A stretch of DNA of 64,000 bases from Escherichia coli (GTDB lineage Bacteria > Pseudomonadota > Gammaproteobacteria > Enterobacterales > Enterobacteriaceae), in NCBI RefSeq assembly GCF_003790525.1, contig NZ_CP033635.1, one strand, 5' to 3'. Positions within the stretch are counted from its first letter, which is position 1; every line of letters begins with the position of its first letter. Under the pieces are notes generated by a model that ran no database searches, was not told the DNA's origin, and was given only the letters and a program-made list of their open reading frames with translations. The position numbers and the translations under genes are program-made. Of this stretch, positions 1,384 through 10,111 are shown piece after piece.

Positions 1384-1577
1384 TTAATTGCCTTATAAAT
1401 ATTTAGATAAGAGAGATAATATTTTAAATGAAAAAATGATCCGTCACTATACACATTTTGCTTATAAACAAACCGAAATCATTCACACTCCGAATAATTC
1501 CTGCGACTTAAAATATAAATCGCAGGAAGCGATTTTAATTACCCGCTCTACCACTGGCGCAGGATATAAACTCTCAC

Positions 1578-3884
1578 CTACATTCCATAACGTTCAGAAA
1601 TAGCAGCATGCTTCTCTTCATTCGCCCCGGCTTCTTTGGCAAGACGCCACCAGCACAACGGATGTTCCCAGTCAGCGGTCAATTCGTGCAAGGTCTTATC
1701 GATATCACCTTTAGAAACTGAACGCGGCGCGCTGATAACAAAGTAGAACGCGGGCAGCGGCTGTGCATCTTCTCCCTGCTGGCTGTCCGTTAACGTATAG
1801 TCCTCGTTACTGTTGCTCCAGTAGTACCAGTTTCGTTCACGGAGCGCCTCACGGAAGGCATTAAACTGTTCTTCACCAGGCATGACACCTTCGCAGAACC
1901 AGGACTCGCCGTACTCAGTCGGGATAATGGTTTGCAGGCAGGCATAAAGTGGCGTGAAATTCTTCCGTTCTTCCTCATCCTCTGGTTGGGTGTTCAATAT
2001 TTCCGCATCGAATACCACAACTTCATCAACATGTTGCGGATAATCGGTCCGGTAAGTTGGCTCAATGATCCTTGCTGTTACCGGCCCAATACGTTGAGCA
2101 TAGTAATAGCGGTATTCATAATTTTCCCGGAAGCGAATGTTTAGCAGTCCCCATTTTTCGTCGATAAAACCTTCACCTTCCGTAAGTTCGATTTCCAGTT
2201 CAGCTGCAATAGCACGAACCAAATCCCATTGTTGCAGGATGCTGGCGGTCGCCATGATATCCCACTGGATATTACGAATATCTTCTTCACGGCTAATCAT
2301 CAGTTGCTGCAATTGTTGTAAATAATCCAGCTGTCGATCCCAGGCTTCCTGTTTTTGTGCTGCCCAGGAGCACATGCGATAAACGCCGATCCACTCACGC
2401 CCTTTTTCGTTTTGCAGCAACTGGTGCCCAATCGACTCGAGTTCACTCCAGTCTTCCTGTTGGTTGATCACTCGCGCACGGAACCACAAGGCCATATGTA
2501 GCAGCCCCGCCTGTTCATACTGCTTCGCCAGGTGCTCAATGGTTTGCAGATCGTCACGGTGGAGCAATAAATCCAACAGATCGAAGCAAAGACCATTATC
2601 TTCCTGGATGTGGCTTTCGACGTAGCGTTGCAGAAGTTCAATCGACTCATCAATCGCATTACAGGCGTTTAACGCATTGACCAGTTTGCCCAGCAATTCC
2701 GCATCATCTGGCGCGTTCAGGTAAGCGCGGCGGAATGTTTCGACGTCTTTTTCTGGATCTGGCTGCGTTTCTTCATCGCTATTTTCAGGTACTTCTACAA
2801 CCGGACGAGCAAGCAACTCTGCTTCTTTGGCGGCGATTTTTTCACTCAGTTCGAGAAACTCACGATCAACCCCCAGTAACACGCGTAATTTTGGCATGTG
2901 TCGCTGGGCCAGTTTCATCGCTATTTTGGCAACCCAGACGGATTCACGCTCCAGCGCCAGGGTAATTTGCAGTTTCGCCAGATCAACCACTTTGCGGTGC
3001 GCTCCGGCCTGCGAGCGGTGCTCCAGCATTTTTTGGATGATGCGCGCCAGTTGCCAGTTGTTTCTTTGTGGATGACGGGGAAGTAACACAGTAATGATTT
3101 TCAGCCATGACCCCCATGAATGGGGAGTCAGATCTGACCAACGCGGTAATTCCTCCCAGACTTCTTCGTCCTGCCCGCATAACGCCATGATGTACAGTTT
3201 TTTGAGGTGATTACTAATGCGGTCGCGGCCCCAGTAATCATTGGCTTCTGTCAGCTCATCAATCAGTATGCGTGCTTCATCATAACGCTGAAGTTCAATC
3301 AGAATATCGGCACGAGTATAAAGTAATGCATCAATATCATCTTCCCCGGCTGCTTTAACTGCGTCGATTTGTCGATCCAGATAAGCCAGTGCCTCCTCTA
3401 TTCTTTTGGAATCTATCAGTGCACTGGCATATTCAGTGGACAAACACTGAAAACAGCTCCAGGTCGGATCAATCCGCGCGATGGTTTCTTCACATACCGC
3501 CATACGTTCATTCGCCCAGCCAGGTGCATCAATATTTTCGTAGCAGGCGGATAAATCCTGGGTAACGCAGATAGATTGTGGGCAATCTTTTGTCTCTTCC
3601 CGGTGCGCTTTTTCAAACAGCGCTACCACGTCTGGCAGCACCTTTTCACCTTCTTCATAGTTAGTCAGGCGATGACGCATTTCCCAGTGACCAATAAATA
3701 TTTCCAGCCACGGATTTTTTGCCACCTGGGTAAGTGCTTTTACTTCAGGTAACAGCGAATCGCACTTTTCCATTTGCAGGTGCATAACGCCTTCCGAATA
3801 ATCATCGATAAGTTGCGGAATATACTCCTGCCCGGCATCGCGTAACTCCTTAGTATATTTGTGATACCACTCCCATATATCCAT
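1578..3884 (-). CDS. 768-aa acidic, Trp-rich, predicted alpha-helical repeat (TPR-like) protein of unknown function; distal gene of the accessory Hsp90-like operon
   Basis: Long uninterrupted ORF; its ATG (3882-3884) lies 1 nt after the TAA (3886-3888) of the upstream gene, with SD-like AAGGAA just upstream; no catalytic motif recognised. Confidence 0.75.
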   Translation of the reverse strand: MDIWEWYHKYTKELRDAGQEYIPQLIDDYSEGVMHLQMEKCDSLLPEVKALTQVAKNPWLEIFIGHWEMRHRLTNYEEGEKVLPDVVALFEKAHREETKDCPQSICVTQDLSACYENIDAPGWANERMAVCEETIARIDPTWSCFQCLSTEYASALIDSKRIEEALAYLDRQIDAVKAAGEDDIDALLYTRADILIELQRYDEARILIDELTEANDYWGRDRISNHLKKLYIMALCGQDEEVWEELPRWSDLTPHSWGSWLKIITVLLPRHPQRNNWQLARIIQKMLEHRSQAGAHRKVVDLAKLQITLALERESVWVAKIAMKLAQRHMPKLRVLLGVDREFLELSEKIAAKEAELLARPVVEVPENSDEETQPDPEKDVETFRRAYLNAPDDAELLGKLVNALNACNAIDESIELLQRYVESHIQEDNGLCFDLLDLLLHRDDLQTIEHLAKQYEQAGLLHMALWFRARVINQQEDWSELESIGHQLLQNEKGREWIGVYRMCSWAAQKQEAWDRQLDYLQQLQQLMISREEDIRNIQWDIMATASILQQWDLVRAIAAELEIELTEGEGFIDEKWGLLNIRFRENYEYRYYYAQRIGPVTARIIEPTYRTDYPQHVDEVVVFDAEILNTQPEDEEERKNFTPLYACLQTIIPTEYGESWFCEGVMPGEEQFNAFREALRERNWYYWSNSNEDYTLTDSQQGEDAQPLPAFYFVISAPRSVSKGDIDKTLHELTADWEHPLCWWRLAKEAGANEEKHAAISERYGM

Positions 3885-3885
3885 T

Positions 3886-5721
3886 TTATTTTCCTTGATT
3901 AATTAAGACAGGAATAACCTGAGTAAAATCTTCCAGTGCCTGGTGTAAATCCCACTGCTGTTCTTTATTACCGCTGGAGCACAAAATCACTTTCAGCGAT
4001 TTTAATAAGCGTAATGCCGCTGCGGGCTGTTGCTGGTGTTGTAATGCCGTCACCAGTTGCATGATGCAAGGGTTATTAAGGTTGATGTATAAACTTGAGG
4101 TTTTCGTTTTTTGGATTTGTGAAGTAAATTGCCGCGCCAGCATTAACGCTGCGGTGCTGATGCGTTTATCTGCGTCATCCTGTTCGAGAATTTGTTTTAA
4201 TTCTGCTTCGCGGTCTGGCGTAACCACTAACGGTAAAACGGCGGGTTCGAAGCGGGAGATAATTAATTGCTCGCCATCGCAGAGATGCTCTTCCAGATAA
4301 GCTACCTGCTCTTCGGGTAATTCCGCCAGGCTGAACAACTGCTCATTACCTGTTTGCGTACCGACTTCGACAATCCGGCAGTGATATAACAGCGCCCAGC
4401 GACGTAAAAATGGCACGACGGCATAGCGATCGCCACGGGCAACGGGCCGTTGCAGAATGTGGAACAACATCTCTTCAAAACCGCCGTCGCGGCTTAACAG
4501 AATATGAATGCTGTTATTAACGCGTAAATCCTTCGCCAGCAACGCCCCTTTTGACGTTGGCACCTGCAAGCGATCTTTGAGCAAATCAAACAGACGGTCA
4601 TCACATAATGCCGCACCGAGCAACGCTTCGTTGTGGCGCATTAATACACGCCGCCAGATTTCTGGCTGATTTTGTGCGAGATCGGACAAACCAGAAATCA
4701 GCGCCTCTTTTAACGCCTCCTGCACCGCAACCCAGGTTTCGTCCCGCTGGAGATCTTCCCGGCTCGCCGTAGGCGTTAGTTTCGATGACTCAATCACGCC
4801 GCCAATAAATCCGGCCCAGGGAGGTAACAACTCACGCGCTTCATCATCCAGTAACATACCGCGCAAAAACAGCGACAGGTTGCGGTTATCGCTGGTGCCG
4901 TAGGTTGCGCCATCCTGAATCCATAAAATCCCAACCGCGTCGCTCATCCCCACGGGCACCACCGGAATGGTGCAAATCGGTTCGAAGGAGGATTCAAACT
5001 GGGCGGCAAAGGCGAGATTTTTACGCTGTACCAGCGCGCGGTGCATGGTTACGCCTTCGGGGGCAACTTCACGCCACGGTGGTTGAAGTTTATTTACCGG
5101 CTCGCTGGCATCGCCGACATAGACCGGTTCGTGCAGCAATATACAGTAGCGGGAAAGAACGCGGTTCAGCAAATTGTTACTCGCCAGATGGCTGTACTCT
5201 TCTTTGAGCGTCAGAATCACCTGCGTACCCGTTTCCGAGGACTGATGCGGCGTAACGGTATATTTTTGCCCGTCGGTAGAGTGGTATTTCCAGCTCTGAT
5301 CCGGCGTTTGCCAGGATGTGGTCAACACCGTGACCTCTTTCGCCAACACAAAGGCCGACAAAAAACCGAGGCCGAACATACCAATTAAACCGGTGTTGTC
5401 ATCCTGCTGGCGCAACATTCGGGTATAACCCACGCCTACTGTCGCCAGGAAGCCGTGAATTTCACTTTCTGTCAGTCCAGCGCCAGTATCGCTAATAGTG
5501 ATAGTGGACTTCGCCACGTCTGCCACCACACGAATCGCGTTATCCTTTGGTGCATCGGGCTGCTCAATCCTGCGGCGAACGATCGCATCATGGCCGTTCT
5601 GCACCAGCTCGCGCACGGCAACCACGGGAGTGGAGTAAAGATGCTTACTGAGCACCTCAATTAAGCCGTTTAAATTAACTTCTGTAGAATATGAACTACC
5701 AGGTAACTGTAATGTACTCAT
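3886..5721 (-). CDS. Divergent Hsp90/HtpG-family (GHKL) ATPase paralog, 611 aa
   Basis: Bergerat-fold motifs in order: E38xxxN42xxD45 (RELVQNGHDA), D78TGAG (ISDTGAGL), G114MFGLGFLSAF; middle-domain signature LPPWAGFIGGVIESSKLTPTASRE resembles Hsp90 FxRGVVDSEDLPLNISRE; shorter than canonical HtpG. Confidence 0.8.
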   Translation of the reverse strand: MSTLQLPGSSYSTEVNLNGLIEVLSKHLYSTPVVAVRELVQNGHDAIVRRRIEQPDAPKDNAIRVVADVAKSTITISDTGAGLTESEIHGFLATVGVGYTRMLRQQDDNTGLIGMFGLGFLSAFVLAKEVTVLTTSWQTPDQSWKYHSTDGQKYTVTPHQSSETGTQVILTLKEEYSHLASNNLLNRVLSRYCILLHEPVYVGDASEPVNKLQPPWREVAPEGVTMHRALVQRKNLAFAAQFESSFEPICTIPVVPVGMSDAVGILWIQDGATYGTSDNRNLSLFLRGMLLDDEARELLPPWAGFIGGVIESSKLTPTASREDLQRDETWVAVQEALKEALISGLSDLAQNQPEIWRRVLMRHNEALLGAALCDDRLFDLLKDRLQVPTSKGALLAKDLRVNNSIHILLSRDGGFEEMLFHILQRPVARGDRYAVVPFLRRWALLYHCRIVEVGTQTGNEQLFSLAELPEEQVAYLEEHLCDGEQLIISRFEPAVLPLVVTPDREAELKQILEQDDADKRISTAALMLARQFTSQIQKTKTSSLYINLNNPCIMQLVTALQHQQQPAAALRLLKSLKVILCSSGNKEQQWDLHQALEDFTQVIPVLINQGK

Positions 5722-6030
5722 TTTTCAATACTCATAATCCATCACCTACTATTGAAAATACATCGCTGTTTTTACAACCGGTGCAAGGTTTGTTATTTCA
5801 TTCACTCATCGGAAACATTTATTTATTGACGCGATGATTAAAACAAAATGTCTTATATAAATAATGATTAATTCTTAAAGGATTAATGCGACTGGAGTAT
5901 ATCGATATAACCCGGAGTTAACGAGATAATTTCTTGTGGTGAAATTATTATTTGAATGCTGAATAATATATTGAGGATTATTTAATAGAAAAATAAAACC
6001 GCAATCCAGAATCAGAATTGCGGTATTTCT

Positions 6031-7060: not shown

Positions 7061-10000
7061 ATGCAGGTCAGCAGAAGGCAGTTCTTTAAGATCTGCGCTG
7101 GCGGTATGGCAGGCACCACGGCAGCGGCACTGGGTTTTGCACCCAGCGTAGCACTCGCGGAAACCCGGCAGTATAAACTGCTGCGCACCCGCGAAACCCG
7201 TAATACCTGCACCTATTGTTCCGTAGGCTGTGGGCTGTTGATGTACAGCCTCGGTGACGGAGCAAAAAACGCCAAAGCATCTATCTTCCATATCGAAGGT
7301 GACCCGGATCACCCGGTCAACCGCGGAGCACTTTGTCCGAAAGGCGCTGGCCTGGTGGATTTCATCCACTCCGAAAGCCGCCTGAAGTTTCCGGAATACC
7401 GTGCGCCAGGTTCTGATAAATGGCAACAAATCAGTTGGGAAGAGGCGTTTGATCGCATCGCCAAACTGATGAAAGAAGACCGCGATGCGAACTACATTGC
7501 GCAAAACGCCGAAGGCGTGACTGTTAACCGCTGGCTCTCCACCGGGATGCTGTGTGCTTCCGCGTCGAGCAACGAAACCGGCTATTTAACACAAAAATTC
7601 TCCCGCGCGCTGGGTATGCTCGCGGTCGACAACCAGGCGCGTGTCTGACACGGACCAACGGTAGCAAGTCTTGCTCCAACATTTGGTCGCGGTGCGATGA
7701 CCAACCACTGGGTCGACATCAAGAATGCCAACCTCGTCGTGGTGATGGGCGGTAACGCCGCTGAAGCTCACCCGGTCGGGTTCCGCTGGGCGATGGAAGC
7801 CAAAATTCACAACGGCGCGAAGCTGATTGTGATCGATCCTCGCTTTACACGTACGGCGGCGGTGGCTGACTACTATGCCCCTATTCGTTCCGGGACTGAC
7901 ATTGCTTTCCTGTCAGGCGTATTGCTGTACCTGCTGAACAATGAAAAATTCAACCGCGAATACACCGAAGCCTATACCAACGCCAGCCTGATCGTGCGTG
8001 AGGATTACGGCTTTGAAGATGGCCTGTTCACCGGCTACGACGCGGAAAAACGCAAGTACGATAAATCCAGCTGGACCTACGAGCTGGACGAAAACGGCTT
8101 CGCCAAACGCGATACCACGCTGCAACATCCGCGCTGCGTGTGGAACTTGCTGAAACAGCACGTTTCCCGTTATACGCCAGATGTGGTTGAAAACATCTGT
8201 GGTACGCCGAAAGACGCGTTCCTGAAAGTCTGCGAATACATCGCAGAGACCAGTGCTCACGATAAAACTGCCTCGTTCCTTTACGCGCTCGGCTGGACGC
8301 AACACTCCATTGGTGCGCAAAACATTCGTACGATGGCGATGATCCAGCTGCTGCTCGGCAACATGGGGATGGCAGGCGGCGGCGTTAACGCCCTGCGCGG
8401 TCACTCCAATATTCAGGGGCTGACCGACCTGGGGCTGCTGTCGCAGAGTCTGCCAGGTTACATGACGTTGCCAAGCGAGAAGCAGACCGATCTGCAAACT
8501 TACCTTACCGCCAACACGCCGAAACCACTGCTGGAAGGCCAGGTTAACTACTGGGGCAATTACCCGAAATTCTTCGTCTCCATGATGAAGGCCTTCTTTG
8601 GTGATAAAGCGACGGCGGAAAATAACTGGGGCTTTGACTGGTTGCCGAAGTGGGATAAAGGCTACGACGTCCTGCAATACTTCGAGATGATGAAAGAGGG
8701 CAAGGTCAATGGCTATATCTGCCAGGGCTTTAACCCTGTTGCCTCATTCCCGAACAAAAACAAAGTGATCGGCTGTCTGTCGAAACTGAAGTTCCTCGTG
8801 ACCATCGACCCGCTGAACACTGAAACCTCTAACTTCTGGCAGAACCACGGTGAACTGAACGAAGTTGACTCGTCGAAGATCCAGACCGAAGTGTTCCGTC
8901 TGCCATCGACCTGCTTCGCGGAAGAGAACGGTTCAATCGTCAACTCTGGCCGCTGGTTGCAGTGGCACTGGAAAGGTGCGGACGCCCCGGGGATTGCGCT
9001 GACTGACGGCGAGATCCTCTCCGGTATCTTCCTGCGCTTGCGCAAGATGTATGCCGAACAGGGTGGCGCGAACCCGGACCAGGTGCTGAACATGACCTGG
9101 AACTACGCCATTCCGCATGAGCCATCTTCAGAAGAAGTGGCGATGGAGAGTAACGGTAAGGCGCTGGCCGATATTACCGATCCGGCAACCGGTGCGGTTA
9201 TCGTCAAGAAAGGCCAACAACTTAGCTCGTTCGCCCAACTGCGCGATGACGGTACAACCTCCTGTGGCTGCTGGATTTTCGCCGGTAGCTGGACGCCGGA
9301 AGGCAACCAGATGGCGCGTCGTGATAACGCCGATCCGTCTGGCCTCGGTAACACGCTGGGCTGGGCATGGGCATGGCCGCTTAACCGCCGCATTCTGTAT
9401 AACCGCGCCTCCGCAGATCCGCAGGGTAACCCATGGGATCCGAAGCGTCAGTTGCTGAAATGGGACGGCACTAAGTGGACCGGCTGGGATATTCCGGATT
9501 ACAGCGCAGCGCCTCCGGGCAGTGGCGTCGGGCCGTTTATCATGCAGCAGGAAGGCATGGGGCGTCTGTTTGCCCTCGATAAGATGGCGGAAGGTCCGTT
9601 CCCGGAACACTACGAGCCGTTTGAAACGCCGCTGGGAACTAACCCGCTGCATCCAAACGTTATCTCGAACCCGGCTGCGCGAATCTTTAAAGACGACGCC
9701 GAAGCATTGGGTAAAGCCGATAAGTTCCCGTATGTCGGAACCACCTATCGTCTGACCGAGCACTTCCACTACTGGACCAAACACGCGCTGTTGAACGCGA
9801 TTTTGCAACCAGAGCAGTTTGTGGAAATCGGGGAGTCGCTGGCGAATAAACTTGGCATTGCCCAGGGCGATACTGTGAAAGTCTCCTCCAACCGTGGCTA
9901 TATCAAAGCCAAAGCGGTAGTGACCAAACGTATTCGCACGCTGAAAGCAAACGGCAAAGATATCGATACCATCGGTATTCCGATTCACTGGGGCTATGAA

Positions 10001-10111
10001 GGTGTTGCGAAAAAAGGCTTTATTGCCAATACGTTGACGCCATTCGTCGGTGATGCGAACACGCAGACGCCGGAGTTTAAGTCCTTCCTTGTGAATGTGG
10101 AAAAGGTGTAA
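7061..10111 (+). CDS. fdoG: Formate dehydrogenase-O catalytic subunit; selenoprotein with in-frame TGA (Sec) at 7646-7648
   Basis: ORFs 7061-7648 and 7697-10111 are in the same frame, separated only by TGA; frame stays open through ...RVU-HGPTVASLAPTFGRGAM...; Tat signal RRQFFKICAGG at N-terminus. Confidence 0.92.
7646..7695 (+). promoter_or_regulatory. Selenocysteine insertion (SECIS) region immediately 3' of the fdoG UGA
   Basis: Position directly downstream of in-frame TGA; bacterial SECIS hairpins lie within about 40 nt 3' of UGA; exact structure not folded. Confidence 0.6.

What the first reader, a model, noticed from the sequence alone, without database searches (positions are those of the whole stretch)
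3880..3900. Translational coupling between the Hsp90-like gene and its partner
On the minus strand the TAA stop of the Hsp90-like ORF (3886-3888) is separated by a single nucleotide from the ATG of the 768-aa ORF (3882-3884), and an SD-like AAGGAA lies inside the last codons of the upstream gene. This argues for co-transcription and stoichiometric co-expression, i.e. the two proteins act together.
Basis: seen in the sequence. Interest (0 to 1): 0.4.

Follow-up and report, generated by a model that had tools for sequence, protein, structure and literature searches.

The report
Hsp90 paralog and TPR partner operon
In a minority of E. coli strains, a second, non-canonical Hsp90 chaperone gene and a large uncharacterised TPR-repeat gene lie one base apart; the same two genes sit side by side in about 30 bacterial genera, so they almost certainly work as a pair, but nobody knows what the pair does.

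Summary
On the minus strand the 611-aa Hsp90-like ORF ends TAA (3888-3886). One A follows, then the ATG (3884-3882) of the 768-aa ORF. AAGGAA (3896-3891) lies in the last codons of the upstream gene, 7 nt before the ATG.

The ATG is the true start. No other start codon exists upstream in that frame, and the N-terminus MDIWxW is conserved in homologues down to 28% identity.

The window is E. coli SMS-3-5. The two genes form a 4.6-kb insert between fdhD and yiiG, present in 254 of 5,426 complete E. coli genomes and always as a pair.

The claim that the proteins act together is strongly supported, but by synteny rather than by the junction. The Hsp90-like gene sits directly upstream of the partner in 75 of 80 loci from 26 genera. 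No third gene is conserved, and one lineage has the gene order swapped.

The tight junction is lineage-specific: the gap ranges from -4 to +122 nt (median 24) and is 4 nt or less in 8 of 26 genera. The junction RNA is unstructured, so re-initiation is plausible but not obligatory.

The orthologues appear to be P. aeruginosa PA1068/PA1069, which are uncharacterised. The junction itself is ordinary. The gene pair is an unstudied Hsp90-plus-TPR module.

The parts
3882..3888 (-). Cistron junction TAA-A-ATG: stop of the Hsp90-like gene, one spacer base, start of the partner gene
   Evidence: Read directly. Same arrangement in Escherichia alleles and species.
3891..3896 (-). Shine-Dalgarno-like AAGGAA for the partner gene, inside codons 609-611 of the Hsp90-like gene; 7 nt between the GGA core and the ATG
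   Evidence: Purine-rich SD at the same distance in all homologous junctions printed.
3886..5721 (-). Hsp90-family paralog, 611 aa, RefSeq WP_000105771.1 'ATP-binding protein'. GHKL ATPase N-domain plus Hsp90 middle domain; divergent C-terminal part; no EEVD-type tail.
   Evidence: Pfam HATPase_c_3 and HSP90. NCBIfam NF010683 'HSP90 family protein' 288 bits (cutoff 455) and HtpG 197 bits. PDB TRAP1/HtpG E about 5e-30 over residues 10-359, with the RELxxNxxDA, GxFGxGFxSAF and SRE motifs aligned. Family conservation and variable tails. dN/dS 0.02-0.03.
1578..3884 (-). Partner gene, 768 aa, RefSeq WP_000355938.1 'hypothetical protein'; a multi-domain TPR scaffold protein
   Evidence: ORF. Full-length family of about 750-790 aa: 107 hits and 548 representatives at E<=1e-30. 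AF2 model pLDDT 91.3. dN/dS 0.08-0.12.
3435..3884 (-). Partner residues 1-150: family-specific helical module and the most conserved part of the protein. It holds invariant C101, C106, C144, C147 (codons 3584-3582, 3569-3567, 3455-3453, 3446-3444) plus H66 and W67. Inferred metal (Zn) or redox site.
   Evidence: Invariant columns (20 of 33 invariant columns lie in the first 160 residues). Segment CPQSIC...CFQC translated. No PDB sequence match to this part. Metal binding is inference only.
2199..2756 (-). Partner residues 377-562: canonical TPR array
   Evidence: Family profile vs PDB matches engineered and consensus TPR proteins, E 1.8e-43, over query positions 377-539. Helical repeats in the AF2 model. 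Foldseek returns only generic TPR solenoids.
1581..2162 (-). Partner residues 575-768: C-terminal alpha/beta domain (ferredoxin-like/ACT-like topology) with no recognisable enzyme or effector fold
5718..5747 (-). Leader of the first cistron: SD AGGTGA (5747-5742), then a 5-codon mini-ORF ATG AGT ATT GAA AAA TGA (MSIEK*, 5735-5718). Its TGA overlaps the ATG (5721-5719) of the Hsp90-like gene as ATGA.
   Evidence: Conserved in all Escherichia alleles and in Salmonella Infantis. In Superficieibacter electus the two ATGs are in frame.
5998..6024 (-). Terminator-like hairpin plus T-run just after fdhD, upstream of the pair; it is absent from the K-12 fdhD-yiiG spacer
   Evidence: 10-bp stem, TTTATTTTT. 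K-12 comparison.
1517..1535 (-). Terminator-like hairpin about 45 nt after the partner's TAG stop. It is homologous to the hairpin that follows fdhD in K-12, so the two genes are inserted between fdhD and its ancestral terminator.
   Evidence: Alignment and sequence comparison with K-12.

Best explanation
The junction is the internal boundary of a two-gene operon. The operon encodes a dedicated protein pair.

The first protein is a deep-branching, ATPase-competent paralog of Hsp90, distinct from the housekeeping HtpG. The second is a 768-aa scaffold protein. It has a family-specific N-terminal helical module with four invariant cysteines, two TPR arrays, and a C-terminal alpha/beta domain. The pair appears orthologous to P. 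aeruginosa PA1068/PA1069.

In Escherichia and its close relatives the second cistron starts 1-4 nt after the first one's stop, and its Shine-Dalgarno sequence is written into the last codons of the Hsp90-like gene. A ribosome terminating on the first gene can therefore re-initiate on the second. Because the site is unstructured, free ribosomes can also initiate there.

Functionally, the partner is most likely an adaptor or co-chaperone, or an obligate client, of this specialised Hsp90. It would use its TPR surfaces to bind the chaperone and/or substrates.

Shown here: the sequence anatomy, the true start codon, the conserved pairing, purifying selection on both genes, and the domain architecture. 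Inferred: co-transcription, re-initiation, physical complex formation, metal binding by the cysteines, and the chaperone/adaptor role.
For: Junction and SD are read directly. The start codon is fixed by the upstream in-frame stop and by N-terminal conservation.

Pairing:
- The Hsp90-like gene is directly upstream on the same strand in 75 of 80 genome loci, from 26 genera.
- Metagenomic members show -4 or -1 overlaps.
- The order is swapped in L088/L089.
- The two genes stay neighbours despite an inserted kinase gene in L097.
- No third conserved neighbour was found among 30 genera.
- In E. coli the two genes always occur together, at one locus, in 254 of 5,426 genomes.

Both genes are intact and under purifying selection: dN/dS is 0.02-0.03 for the Hsp90-like gene and 0.08-0.12 for the partner.

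The Hsp90 catalytic motifs are conserved.

Partner architecture comes from confident models and a strong TPR profile match.

Terminator-like hairpins bracket the pair and no promoter-like site lies near the second gene.

The surrounding genes are housekeeping, with no mobile or defence genes. The pair does not occur in any record that is actually a phage or a small plasmid: the three 'plasmid' matches include an 11.85-Mb replicon and an 847-kb one, and the one 'phage' match is a Salmonella genome contig.

Literature: PA1069 'appears operonic' with the Hsp90 gene (PMC4053335).
Against: No transcript, protein or interaction data exist for E. coli.

The tight junction is not a conserved feature of the family: the median gap is 24 nt and it reaches 122 nt.

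The junction RNA is unstructured, so the second gene does not need the first to be translated.

The C-terminal tails of the Hsp90-like proteins are not conserved and carry no EEVD-like motif. The classical way TPR co-chaperones dock on Hsp90 therefore does not apply.

Two partner homologues have no Hsp90-like gene nearby: Thorsellia L064 and Nonomuraea L084.

In P. aeruginosa, PA1069 fell at 46 C (PMC4957987). The pair therefore does not behave as a classical heat-shock operon there. PA1069 may also be regulated on its own (PMC3003667, PMC3946381).

The identification with PA1068/PA1069 rests on gene context plus PMC4053335, not on a direct sequence comparison with PAO1.
Confidence: 0.6

Rival explanations
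1. Same operon and same functional pair, but translation of the partner is essentially independent. Its own accessible SD recruits free ribosomes, and the 1-nt spacing is only genome compaction. Expression ratios would be set by separate initiation rates or by separate regulation, not by coupling.
For: The junction RNA is unstructured, with SD and AUG unpaired. Every family member has its own SD, and most have gaps of 20-50 nt. In P. aeruginosa, PA1069 has a predicted Crc target motif and rose 4.3-fold in a crc mutant proteome (PMC3003667). An AmrZ ChIP peak was assigned to PA1069 (PMC3946381).
Against: Junctions of 4 nt or less, or overlaps (ATGA, TGATG), recur in 8 of 26 genera and in further metagenomic members. 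This repeated pattern suggests selection for tight linkage. Within Enterobacteriaceae the 1-4 nt spacing is kept although the partner has diverged to about 40% identity. Re-initiation at such distances is well documented in general (established knowledge).
Confidence: 0.25
2. The pair is a conflict or anti-phage defence system. A GHKL-type ATPase acts as switch or motor, and a fast-evolving TPR protein senses a phage component.
For: Distribution in E. coli is patchy (4.7% of genomes). The alleles are divergent, and the partner's dN is 3-6 times that of the ATPase. There are weak N-terminal GHKL hits to Tiamat TmtA and to a restriction-enzyme family. TPR sensors are common in bacterial immune proteins (general knowledge).
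Against: No PADLOC model matches either protein beyond the generic ATPase fold, and none matches the partner at all. No nuclease, protease, TIR, pore or other effector fold was found in either protein. The ATPase is a true Hsp90 with a middle domain, not MORC-like. The pair sits at a fixed chromosomal site among housekeeping genes and looks core in P. aeruginosa, Xanthomonas and Stenotrophomonas. It has no flanking repeats or mobile genes. The pair does not occur in any record that is actually a phage or a small plasmid. dN/dS is well below 1. No paper links such a pair to defence.
Confidence: 0.1
3. The two genes are merely neighbours with unrelated functions.
For: Two partner homologues were found without an adjacent Hsp90-like gene.
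Against: Adjacency is kept in 75 of 80 loci across Proteobacteria, Acidobacteriota (Holophaga) and a Chloroflexi MAG. It survives a swap of gene order and the insertion of a foreign gene. Only these two genes are conserved in the neighbourhood.
Confidence: 0.03

Closest known systems
Translationally coupled cistron junctions in bacterial operons (for example the -4 ATGA overlaps of fdoH-fdoI-fdhE and yihY-dtd in this same window)
   Same: Same strand, a stop-start distance of a few nucleotides, and the SD of the downstream gene embedded in the end of the upstream gene.
   Different: The gap is +1 rather than an overlap. No RBS-masking structure is present. Dependence of the second cistron on the first was not tested.
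Eukaryotic Hsp90 with TPR co-chaperones (Hop/Sti1, PP5, FKBP51/52, CHIP, SGT1 with the zinc-binding CHORD protein RAR1, UNC-45)
   Same: An Hsp90-family ATPase paired with a TPR-containing multi-domain protein. The partner also has a Cys-rich, possibly metal-binding module, loosely reminiscent of SGT1/RAR1.
   Different: No homology beyond the generic TPR fold. The Hsp90 paralog has no conserved EEVD-type tail for a carboxylate clamp. Physical interaction is untested. Bacterial Hsp90s are generally held to lack co-chaperones (established knowledge, restated in 10.1101/562637 for Hop).
Housekeeping bacterial HtpG (Hsp90Ec) working with DnaK
   Same: Same protein family. N- and M-domains align with E about 1e-28, and the catalytic motifs are present.
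   Different: It is a distant paralog. The match to the NCBIfam HtpG model is 197 bits against a cutoff of 371 and covers residues 14-385 only. The C-terminal region is divergent. It is encoded with a dedicated partner, and in P. aeruginosa it is not heat-induced (PMC4957987).
Deep bacterial Hsp90 paralogs (HTPG Groups B and C of Chen, Zhong and Monteiro 2006, PMC1525184; Stechmann and Cavalier-Smith 2004)
   Same: Second, shorter (about 590-615 aa) Hsp90 copies in some bacteria, including gamma-proteobacteria. NCBIfam's 'HSP90 family protein' PRK14083 is the nearest model.
   Different: Assignment to Group C was not tested here. Within the text I searched (term searches), that paper does not mention a TPR partner gene or gene neighbourhood.
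P. aeruginosa PA1068 (probable Hsp90-family protein) / PA1069 (hypothetical protein)
   Same: Apparent orthologues. Identity is 57% and 41%, the order is the same, and the context is LysR-pair-braG/livG...flgB. PA1069 is described as operonic with the Hsp90 gene (PMC4053335).
   Different: The gap is 36 nt there and the pair is core in that species. Only omics mentions exist and no function has been assigned.
GHKL-ATPase defence proteins (Tiamat TmtA, MORC-like, BbrUII/HgiDII restriction enzymes)
   Same: They share the N-terminal GHKL ATP-binding fold (weak hits).
   Different: Those lack the Hsp90 middle domain and carry effector or DNA-binding modules. No such module is present here.

Membership tests
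Translationally coupled gene pair | Same strand; the stop of the upstream gene lies within a few nt of, or overlaps, the downstream start | tested here: met
   TAA-A-ATG, gap +1. The annotated CDS ends agree.
Translationally coupled gene pair | Downstream SD located inside the upstream coding sequence at a functional distance | tested here: met
   AAGGAA at 3896-3891, with 7 nt from the GGA core to the ATG.
Translationally coupled gene pair | Downstream RBS masked by mRNA structure that upstream translation must open (the 'facilitated' type of coupling) | tested here: not met
   The 101-nt junction folds no better than shuffles (z = +1.01), and SD and AUG are unpaired. Only termination-reinitiation coupling remains possible.
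Translationally coupled gene pair | Downstream translation depends on upstream translation | not testable with these tools
   Needs reporter fusions with premature stop codons.
Operon (co-transcription) | One transcript spans both genes, with no terminator or promoter between them | tested here: inconclusive
   The consensus scan finds hairpin+T sites after fdhD and after the partner. Inside the genes it finds only weak 5-6 bp candidates. No minus-strand promoter-like site lies within 1.4 kb of the second ATG, but none was found upstream of the first gene either. No RNA data are available.
Hsp90 family | GHKL N-domain with the catalytic Glu, Asn and Asp and the GxxGxG lid motifs | tested here: met
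   VRELVQNGHDA, ISDTGAGL and GMFGLGFLSAF align with the TRAP1 motifs. These positions are invariant or nearly invariant in 25 family members.
Hsp90 family | Hsp90 middle domain with the catalytic-loop Arg (SRE motif) | tested here: met
   Pfam HSP90 hit at residues 274-353. TPTASREDLQ aligns with NLSRELLQ of TRAP1.
Hsp90 family | C-terminal dimerisation domain | tested here: inconclusive
   HtpG and PDB alignments stop at about residue 360-385. Only NCBIfam PRK14083 covers up to residue 571, and it scores below its cutoff.
Canonical HtpG (NCBIfam NF003555 equivalog) | Score at or above the curated cutoff (371 bits) | tested here: not met
   197.5 bits. It is a paralog, not HtpG.
EEVD-clamp TPR co-chaperone of Hsp90 | TPR domain present | tested here: met
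   Pfam TPR_19. Profile match to consensus TPR at E 1.8e-43. AF2 solenoid.
EEVD-clamp TPR co-chaperone of Hsp90 | The cognate Hsp90 ends in a conserved acidic EEVD-like tail that the TPR clamp binds | tested here: not met
   The tails of 25 family members are unrelated (…NQGK, …IVEH, …LLAR, and so on).
EEVD-clamp TPR co-chaperone of Hsp90 | Direct binding to Hsp90 and modulation of its ATPase or client cycle | not testable with these tools
Biochemistry is needed.
Known anti-phage defence systems (PADLOC-DB 2.0) | Significant match of the component proteins to a system model | tested here: not met
   The partner has no hit. The ATPase has only weak N-terminal hits to TmtA (best E 5.7e-6 over about 120 aa of a 1,302-position model).
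Known anti-phage defence systems (PADLOC-DB 2.0) | Location in defence islands or mobile elements, and an effector domain | tested here: not met
   Neighbours are housekeeping genes in the annotated loci. No flanking repeats. The pair does not occur in any record that is actually a phage or a small plasmid. No effector fold. Only a handful of neighbourhoods were read in detail.

The most novel reading that the evidence does not exclude
The 768-aa protein is a dedicated co-chaperone or adaptor of a bacterial Hsp90. On this reading the pair is a prokaryotic Hsp90-TPR machine that docks without an EEVD tail. It would be switched by a Cys4 metal or redox site in the conserved N-terminal module and would serve a specific client set, possibly linked to biofilm, calcium or carbon-source responses as hinted for PA1069. 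This would overturn the textbook view that bacterial Hsp90s act without co-chaperones.
Probability: 0.3. Interest if true: 0.7.

Novelty: new variant of a known kind. Interest (0 to 1): 0.45.

Why it matters
The junction itself is routine operon anatomy. What it points to is more useful: a widespread two-gene module that nobody has studied. The partner family has 548 clusters at 50% identity. The module looks core in P. aeruginosa, Xanthomonas and Stenotrophomonas and is patchy in enterics.

Bacterial Hsp90 biology is poorly understood. Few clients are known and no co-chaperones. An Hsp90 paralog that is genetically tied to one specific TPR protein gives a tractable entry point, because the partner is either the long-missing bacterial co-chaperone type or a defined obligate client. 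Mutants already exist in Pseudomonas transposon libraries.

For annotation, the result also corrects labels. 'ATP-binding protein', 'molecular chaperone HtpG' and 'hypothetical protein' should be read as a paired Hsp90-paralog/TPR-partner system.

Tried and rejected
- Downstream Met34 or Met38 as the true start: rejected. Homologues conserve residues 1-6.
- Known defence system: the PADLOC scan was negative, and literature searches for Hsp90-like or TPR defence pairs found nothing relevant.
- Mobile element or plasmid/phage cargo: no flanking direct or inverted repeats. The plasmid and phage 'hits' are an 11.85-Mb replicon, an 847-kb one, a 29-kb Xanthomonas plasmid and a Salmonella genome contig.
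- Foreign base composition: GC is 0.44-0.54 across the two genes, dropping to 0.38 only in the spacer upstream of the Hsp90-like gene.
- RNA element in the leader or at the junction: no Rfam match at E<=1. No stable junction structure.
- Third conserved gene: none among 30 genera. Many apparent 'clusters' were shadow ORFs in GC-rich genomes.
- Function from the partner's fold: the full-length Foldseek search gave only generic TPR solenoids. The C-terminal domain gave only a hypothetical Neisseria protein and generic ferredoxin-like folds. The sequence profile against PDB was not significant. The afdb50 library was unavailable.
- Literature by RefSeq accession found nothing. 'Hsp90xo', a name some records give the ATPase, led only to a genome announcement.
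- Simple sigma-70 scan for the operon promoter: no minus-strand hit in the 309-nt upstream spacer.
- Complex prediction of the two proteins was not possible, because of the chain-length limit and the quota.

Full report
**Where we are.** The first 8 kb of the window are 100% identical to the chromosome of Escherichia coli SMS-3-5 (NC_010498.1). RefSeq annotates the region as frvR, yiiG, a 'hypothetical protein' (WP_000355938.1, 768 aa), an 'ATP-binding protein' (WP_000105771.1, 611 aa), fdhD, and fdoG (labelled fdnG in the record). In K-12, fdhD and yiiG are separated by 152 bp. In SMS-3-5 they are separated by 4.6 kb that contain just these two genes.

**The observation.** On the minus strand the sequence reads ...ATT AAT CAA GGA AAA TAA A ATG GAT ATA TGG.
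- The stop is at 3888-3886, one spacer base at 3885, and the ATG at 3884-3882.
- AAGGAA is at 3896-3891, inside the last three sense codons of the upstream gene. Seven nucleotides separate its GGA core from the ATG, a normal Shine-Dalgarno distance.
- In the frame of the downstream gene, a TAA lies at 3905-3903 with no start codon between it and 3884. The ATG is therefore the first possible start.

**The start codon.** An alignment of 28 full-length homologues (28-77% identity) begins at this Met. M1 and W4 are nearly invariant and W6 is invariant (consensus MDIWxW). All 107 database relatives of normal length cover 100% of the query. The start is right.

**Is the junction special?** Not statistically. 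In 50 kb of this window, 5 of 30 same-strand neighbouring gene pairs are 4 nt or less apart or overlap: yihX-yihY, yihY-dtd, fdhE-fdoI, fdoI-fdoH, and this pair. All five lie in operons. A 1-nt gap is thus a good operon indicator but an ordinary one.
- The 101 nt around the junction fold no better than shuffled sequence (z = +1.0), and SD and AUG are unpaired. There is no RBS-masking structure of the kind that makes downstream translation strictly dependent on upstream translation.
- What remains is termination-reinitiation, which is plausible at this spacing (general knowledge), alongside ordinary de novo initiation.

**Transcription unit.**
- A good terminator-like hairpin with a T-run follows fdhD (6024-5998). 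Another follows the 768-aa gene (1535-1517).
- The second hairpin and the sequence after it are homologous to the hairpin that follows fdhD in K-12. The two genes therefore sit between fdhD and its ancestral terminator and bring a new terminator for fdhD with them.
- Inside the pair only weak 5-6 bp candidates were found. On the minus strand the only promoter-like match is 1.5 kb upstream of the junction.
- No match was found in the 309-nt AT-rich spacer (GC 0.38) in front of the first gene either, so the promoter remains unidentified.
- There is no Rfam family and no flanking repeat.

**What the two proteins are: the upstream protein.** It is a genuine Hsp90-family member, not just a GHKL ATPase.
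- Pfam finds HATPase_c_3 plus the Hsp90 domain.
- NCBIfam places it nearest 'HSP90 family protein' PRK14083 (288 bits, below the 455 cutoff) and then HtpG (197 bits, cutoff 371).
- TRAP1 and HtpG structures match at E about 5e-30 over residues 10-359. The catalytic Glu/Asn/Asp motif (RELVQNGHDA), the GxFGxGFxSAF lid motif and the middle-domain SRE arginine are all aligned, and all are conserved across 25 genera.
- It is therefore a second, deep-branching Hsp90 paralog. Deep paralogy of bacterial HtpG (Groups A, B and C, with gamma-proteobacteria in A and C) has been described (PMC1525184). I did not test which group this one belongs to.
- Its C-terminal tails are unrelated between genera and carry no EEVD-like motif.

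**What the two proteins are: the downstream protein.** It has only a TPR_19 Pfam hit, but it models with high confidence (pLDDT 91.3).
- Residues 1-150 form a helical N-terminal module, followed by TPR-like repeats to about residue 360.
- A short disordered linker follows, then a canonical TPR array at 377-562. The family profile matches consensus TPR proteins at E 1.8e-43.
- Residues 575-768 form an alpha/beta domain.
- The N-terminal 160 residues hold 20 of the 33 invariant columns, including C101, C106, C144, C147 (CPQSxC...CxxC) and H66/W67. Four invariant cysteines in a cytoplasmic protein suggest a metal or redox site. This is inference, not a test.
- No enzymatic or toxic effector domain is apparent in either protein.

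**Do they belong together?** This is where the evidence is strong.
- A scan of one genome per species returned 80 loci with a partner homologue.
- In 75 of them the Hsp90-like gene lies directly upstream on the same strand. Three of the five exceptions have under 330 nt of upstream sequence held and one begins inside the partner gene. Only Thorsellia is a real exception.
- The loci span Enterobacterales, Pseudomonas, Xanthomonas/Stenotrophomonas/Lysobacter, beta- and alpha-proteobacteria, Holophaga and a Chloroflexi MAG.
- Clustering all ORFs in these loci shows that no other gene is shared by more than 4 of 30 genera. The conserved unit is exactly two genes.
- More distant metagenomic members show -4 overlaps (L095, L096) and a -1 overlap (L094). 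One lineage has the order reversed, with the partner first and the Hsp90-like gene 45 nt downstream (L088/L089). One has a histidine-kinase gene inserted between them on the other strand (L097).
- A 26%-identical actinobacterial homologue (Nonomuraea) has no recognisable Hsp90 gene within 7 kb.
- Linkage that survives inversion of order and insertion is classic evidence of functional coupling.

**The junction across the family.** The stop-to-start distance ranges from -4 to +122 nt, with a median of 24.
- It is 4 nt or less in 16 of 75 loci and 8 of 26 genera: Escherichia 1; Superficieibacter 2; Phytobacter 1-4; Kosakonia 4; several Lysobacteraceae, a Pseudoxanthomonas and an alphaproteobacterial MAG -4; a betaproteobacterium -1.
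- It is about 24 nt in 26 Xanthomonas loci, 35-50 nt in Stenotrophomonas, and 36 nt in P. aeruginosa.
- Salmonella Infantis has a 2-nt gap.
- Every junction has its own purine-rich SD 6-10 nt before the start.
- Tight coupling is therefore recurrent and is conserved within Enterobacteriaceae, but it is not a defining property of the system.

**Within E. coli.**
- The 4.6-kb insert is present in 254 of 5,426 complete genomes, always with both genes, single-copy, chromosomal, and at the fdhD-yiiG site.
- There are three allele classes (>=99%, 95-99%, and 90-95% DNA identity). dS is 0.19-0.42 between classes, and the same 1-nt junction is present in all.
- dN/dS is 0.02-0.03 for the Hsp90-like gene and 0.08-0.12 for the partner. 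Both are maintained by selection, and the partner evolves 3-6 times faster in dN.
- The pair also occurs in E. fergusonii, E. marmotae, E. ruysiae and E. whittamii.

**What is known.**
- In P. aeruginosa the pair lies between a LysR-family gene and the braG/livG-braC cluster upstream of flgB. By my knowledge of the PAO1 map, that position corresponds to PA1068/PA1069. The proteins occur on at least 1,000 contigs each.
- One paper notes that PA1069 'appears operonic' with the Hsp90 gene and that the protein is Ca2+- and biofilm-induced (PMC4053335).
- Other papers list PA1069 as reduced at 46 C (PMC4957987), raised in a crc mutant with a predicted Crc site (PMC3003667), AmrZ-activated with a ChIP peak (PMC3946381), and co-precipitated with BatR (PMC13411936).
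- None assigns a function. I found no paper on the pair itself or on the E. coli accessions.

**Interpretation.**
- The best reading is a bicistronic operon for a dedicated Hsp90-paralog/TPR-partner module, with re-initiation coupling in the enteric lineage.
- The partner is most plausibly an adaptor or co-chaperone, or an obligate client. The classical EEVD-clamp mode of TPR docking is excluded by the unconserved tails.
- A defence-system reading is not excluded, but it is disfavoured. PADLOC gives no match, no effector fold is present, and the neighbourhoods are housekeeping genes at a fixed site. The pair also looks core in several genera, and it does not occur in any record that is actually a phage or a small plasmid.
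- The finding as stated (a coupled junction) is correct and ordinary. Its value is that it flags an unstudied, widely conserved Hsp90-plus-TPR pair.

Noticed in passing
window 5718-5747 (minus strand): The Hsp90-like gene has no SD at the usual distance. Instead a good SD (AGGTGA) precedes a 5-codon mini-ORF (MSIEK*). The mini-ORF's TGA overlaps the gene's ATG as ATGA. This is conserved in all Escherichia alleles and in Salmonella (MSVEK*). In Superficieibacter electus the two ATGs are in frame. The first cistron may itself be started by re-initiation.
   Followed up: partly
window 1490-1540 and 5998-6024, versus L082 2850-2960: The two-gene insert sits between the fdhD stop and the hairpin that terminates fdhD in K-12. 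That ancestral hairpin now follows the 768-aa gene, and a different hairpin+T-run now follows fdhD. There are no target-site duplications or terminal repeats.
   Followed up: partly
L086, L087 versus window 1578-5721: E. coli carries three allele classes of the insert that differ by up to 8% in DNA (dS 0.19-0.42). This is far more than typical E. coli core-gene divergence. The alleles resemble those of E. whittamii and cryptic Escherichia clades, which suggests an old polymorphism or inter-species recombination at this locus.
   Followed up: partly
L087 167-2484 (E. coli 6EVA): In one carrier strain, yiiG next to the pair is split by an IS3-family element, while the pair itself stays intact.
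   Followed up: no
L064 (Thorsellia anophelis) and L084 (Nonomuraea gerenzanensis): These partner homologues have no Hsp90-like gene within the fetched flanks. In Thorsellia the neighbours are NAPRTase, PRPP-synthetase-like and HD/AAA_33 genes. Either the ATPase is encoded elsewhere or the partner can act alone.
   Followed up: partly
window 7061-10111 (plus strand): The formate dehydrogenase alpha-subunit gene appears as two ORFs (7061-7648 and 7697-10111) in the mechanical ORF list, but RefSeq annotates it as one CDS. This is consistent with the known in-frame UGA selenocysteine codon of fdoG/fdnG (own knowledge).
   Followed up: no
window about 14288-16102 (record 4373462-4375276): A truncated hypothetical gene and a transposase gene lie between fabY and yiiE. 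This looks like an IS remnant unrelated to the finding.
   Followed up: no
one search hit list: Public records name the same Hsp90-like protein in several ways: 'ATP-binding protein', 'molecular chaperone HtpG', 'heat shock protein (Hsp90-family)' and 'Hsp90xo protein'. The last name hints at an older Xanthomonas oryzae entry that I could not trace in the paper library.
   Followed up: partly
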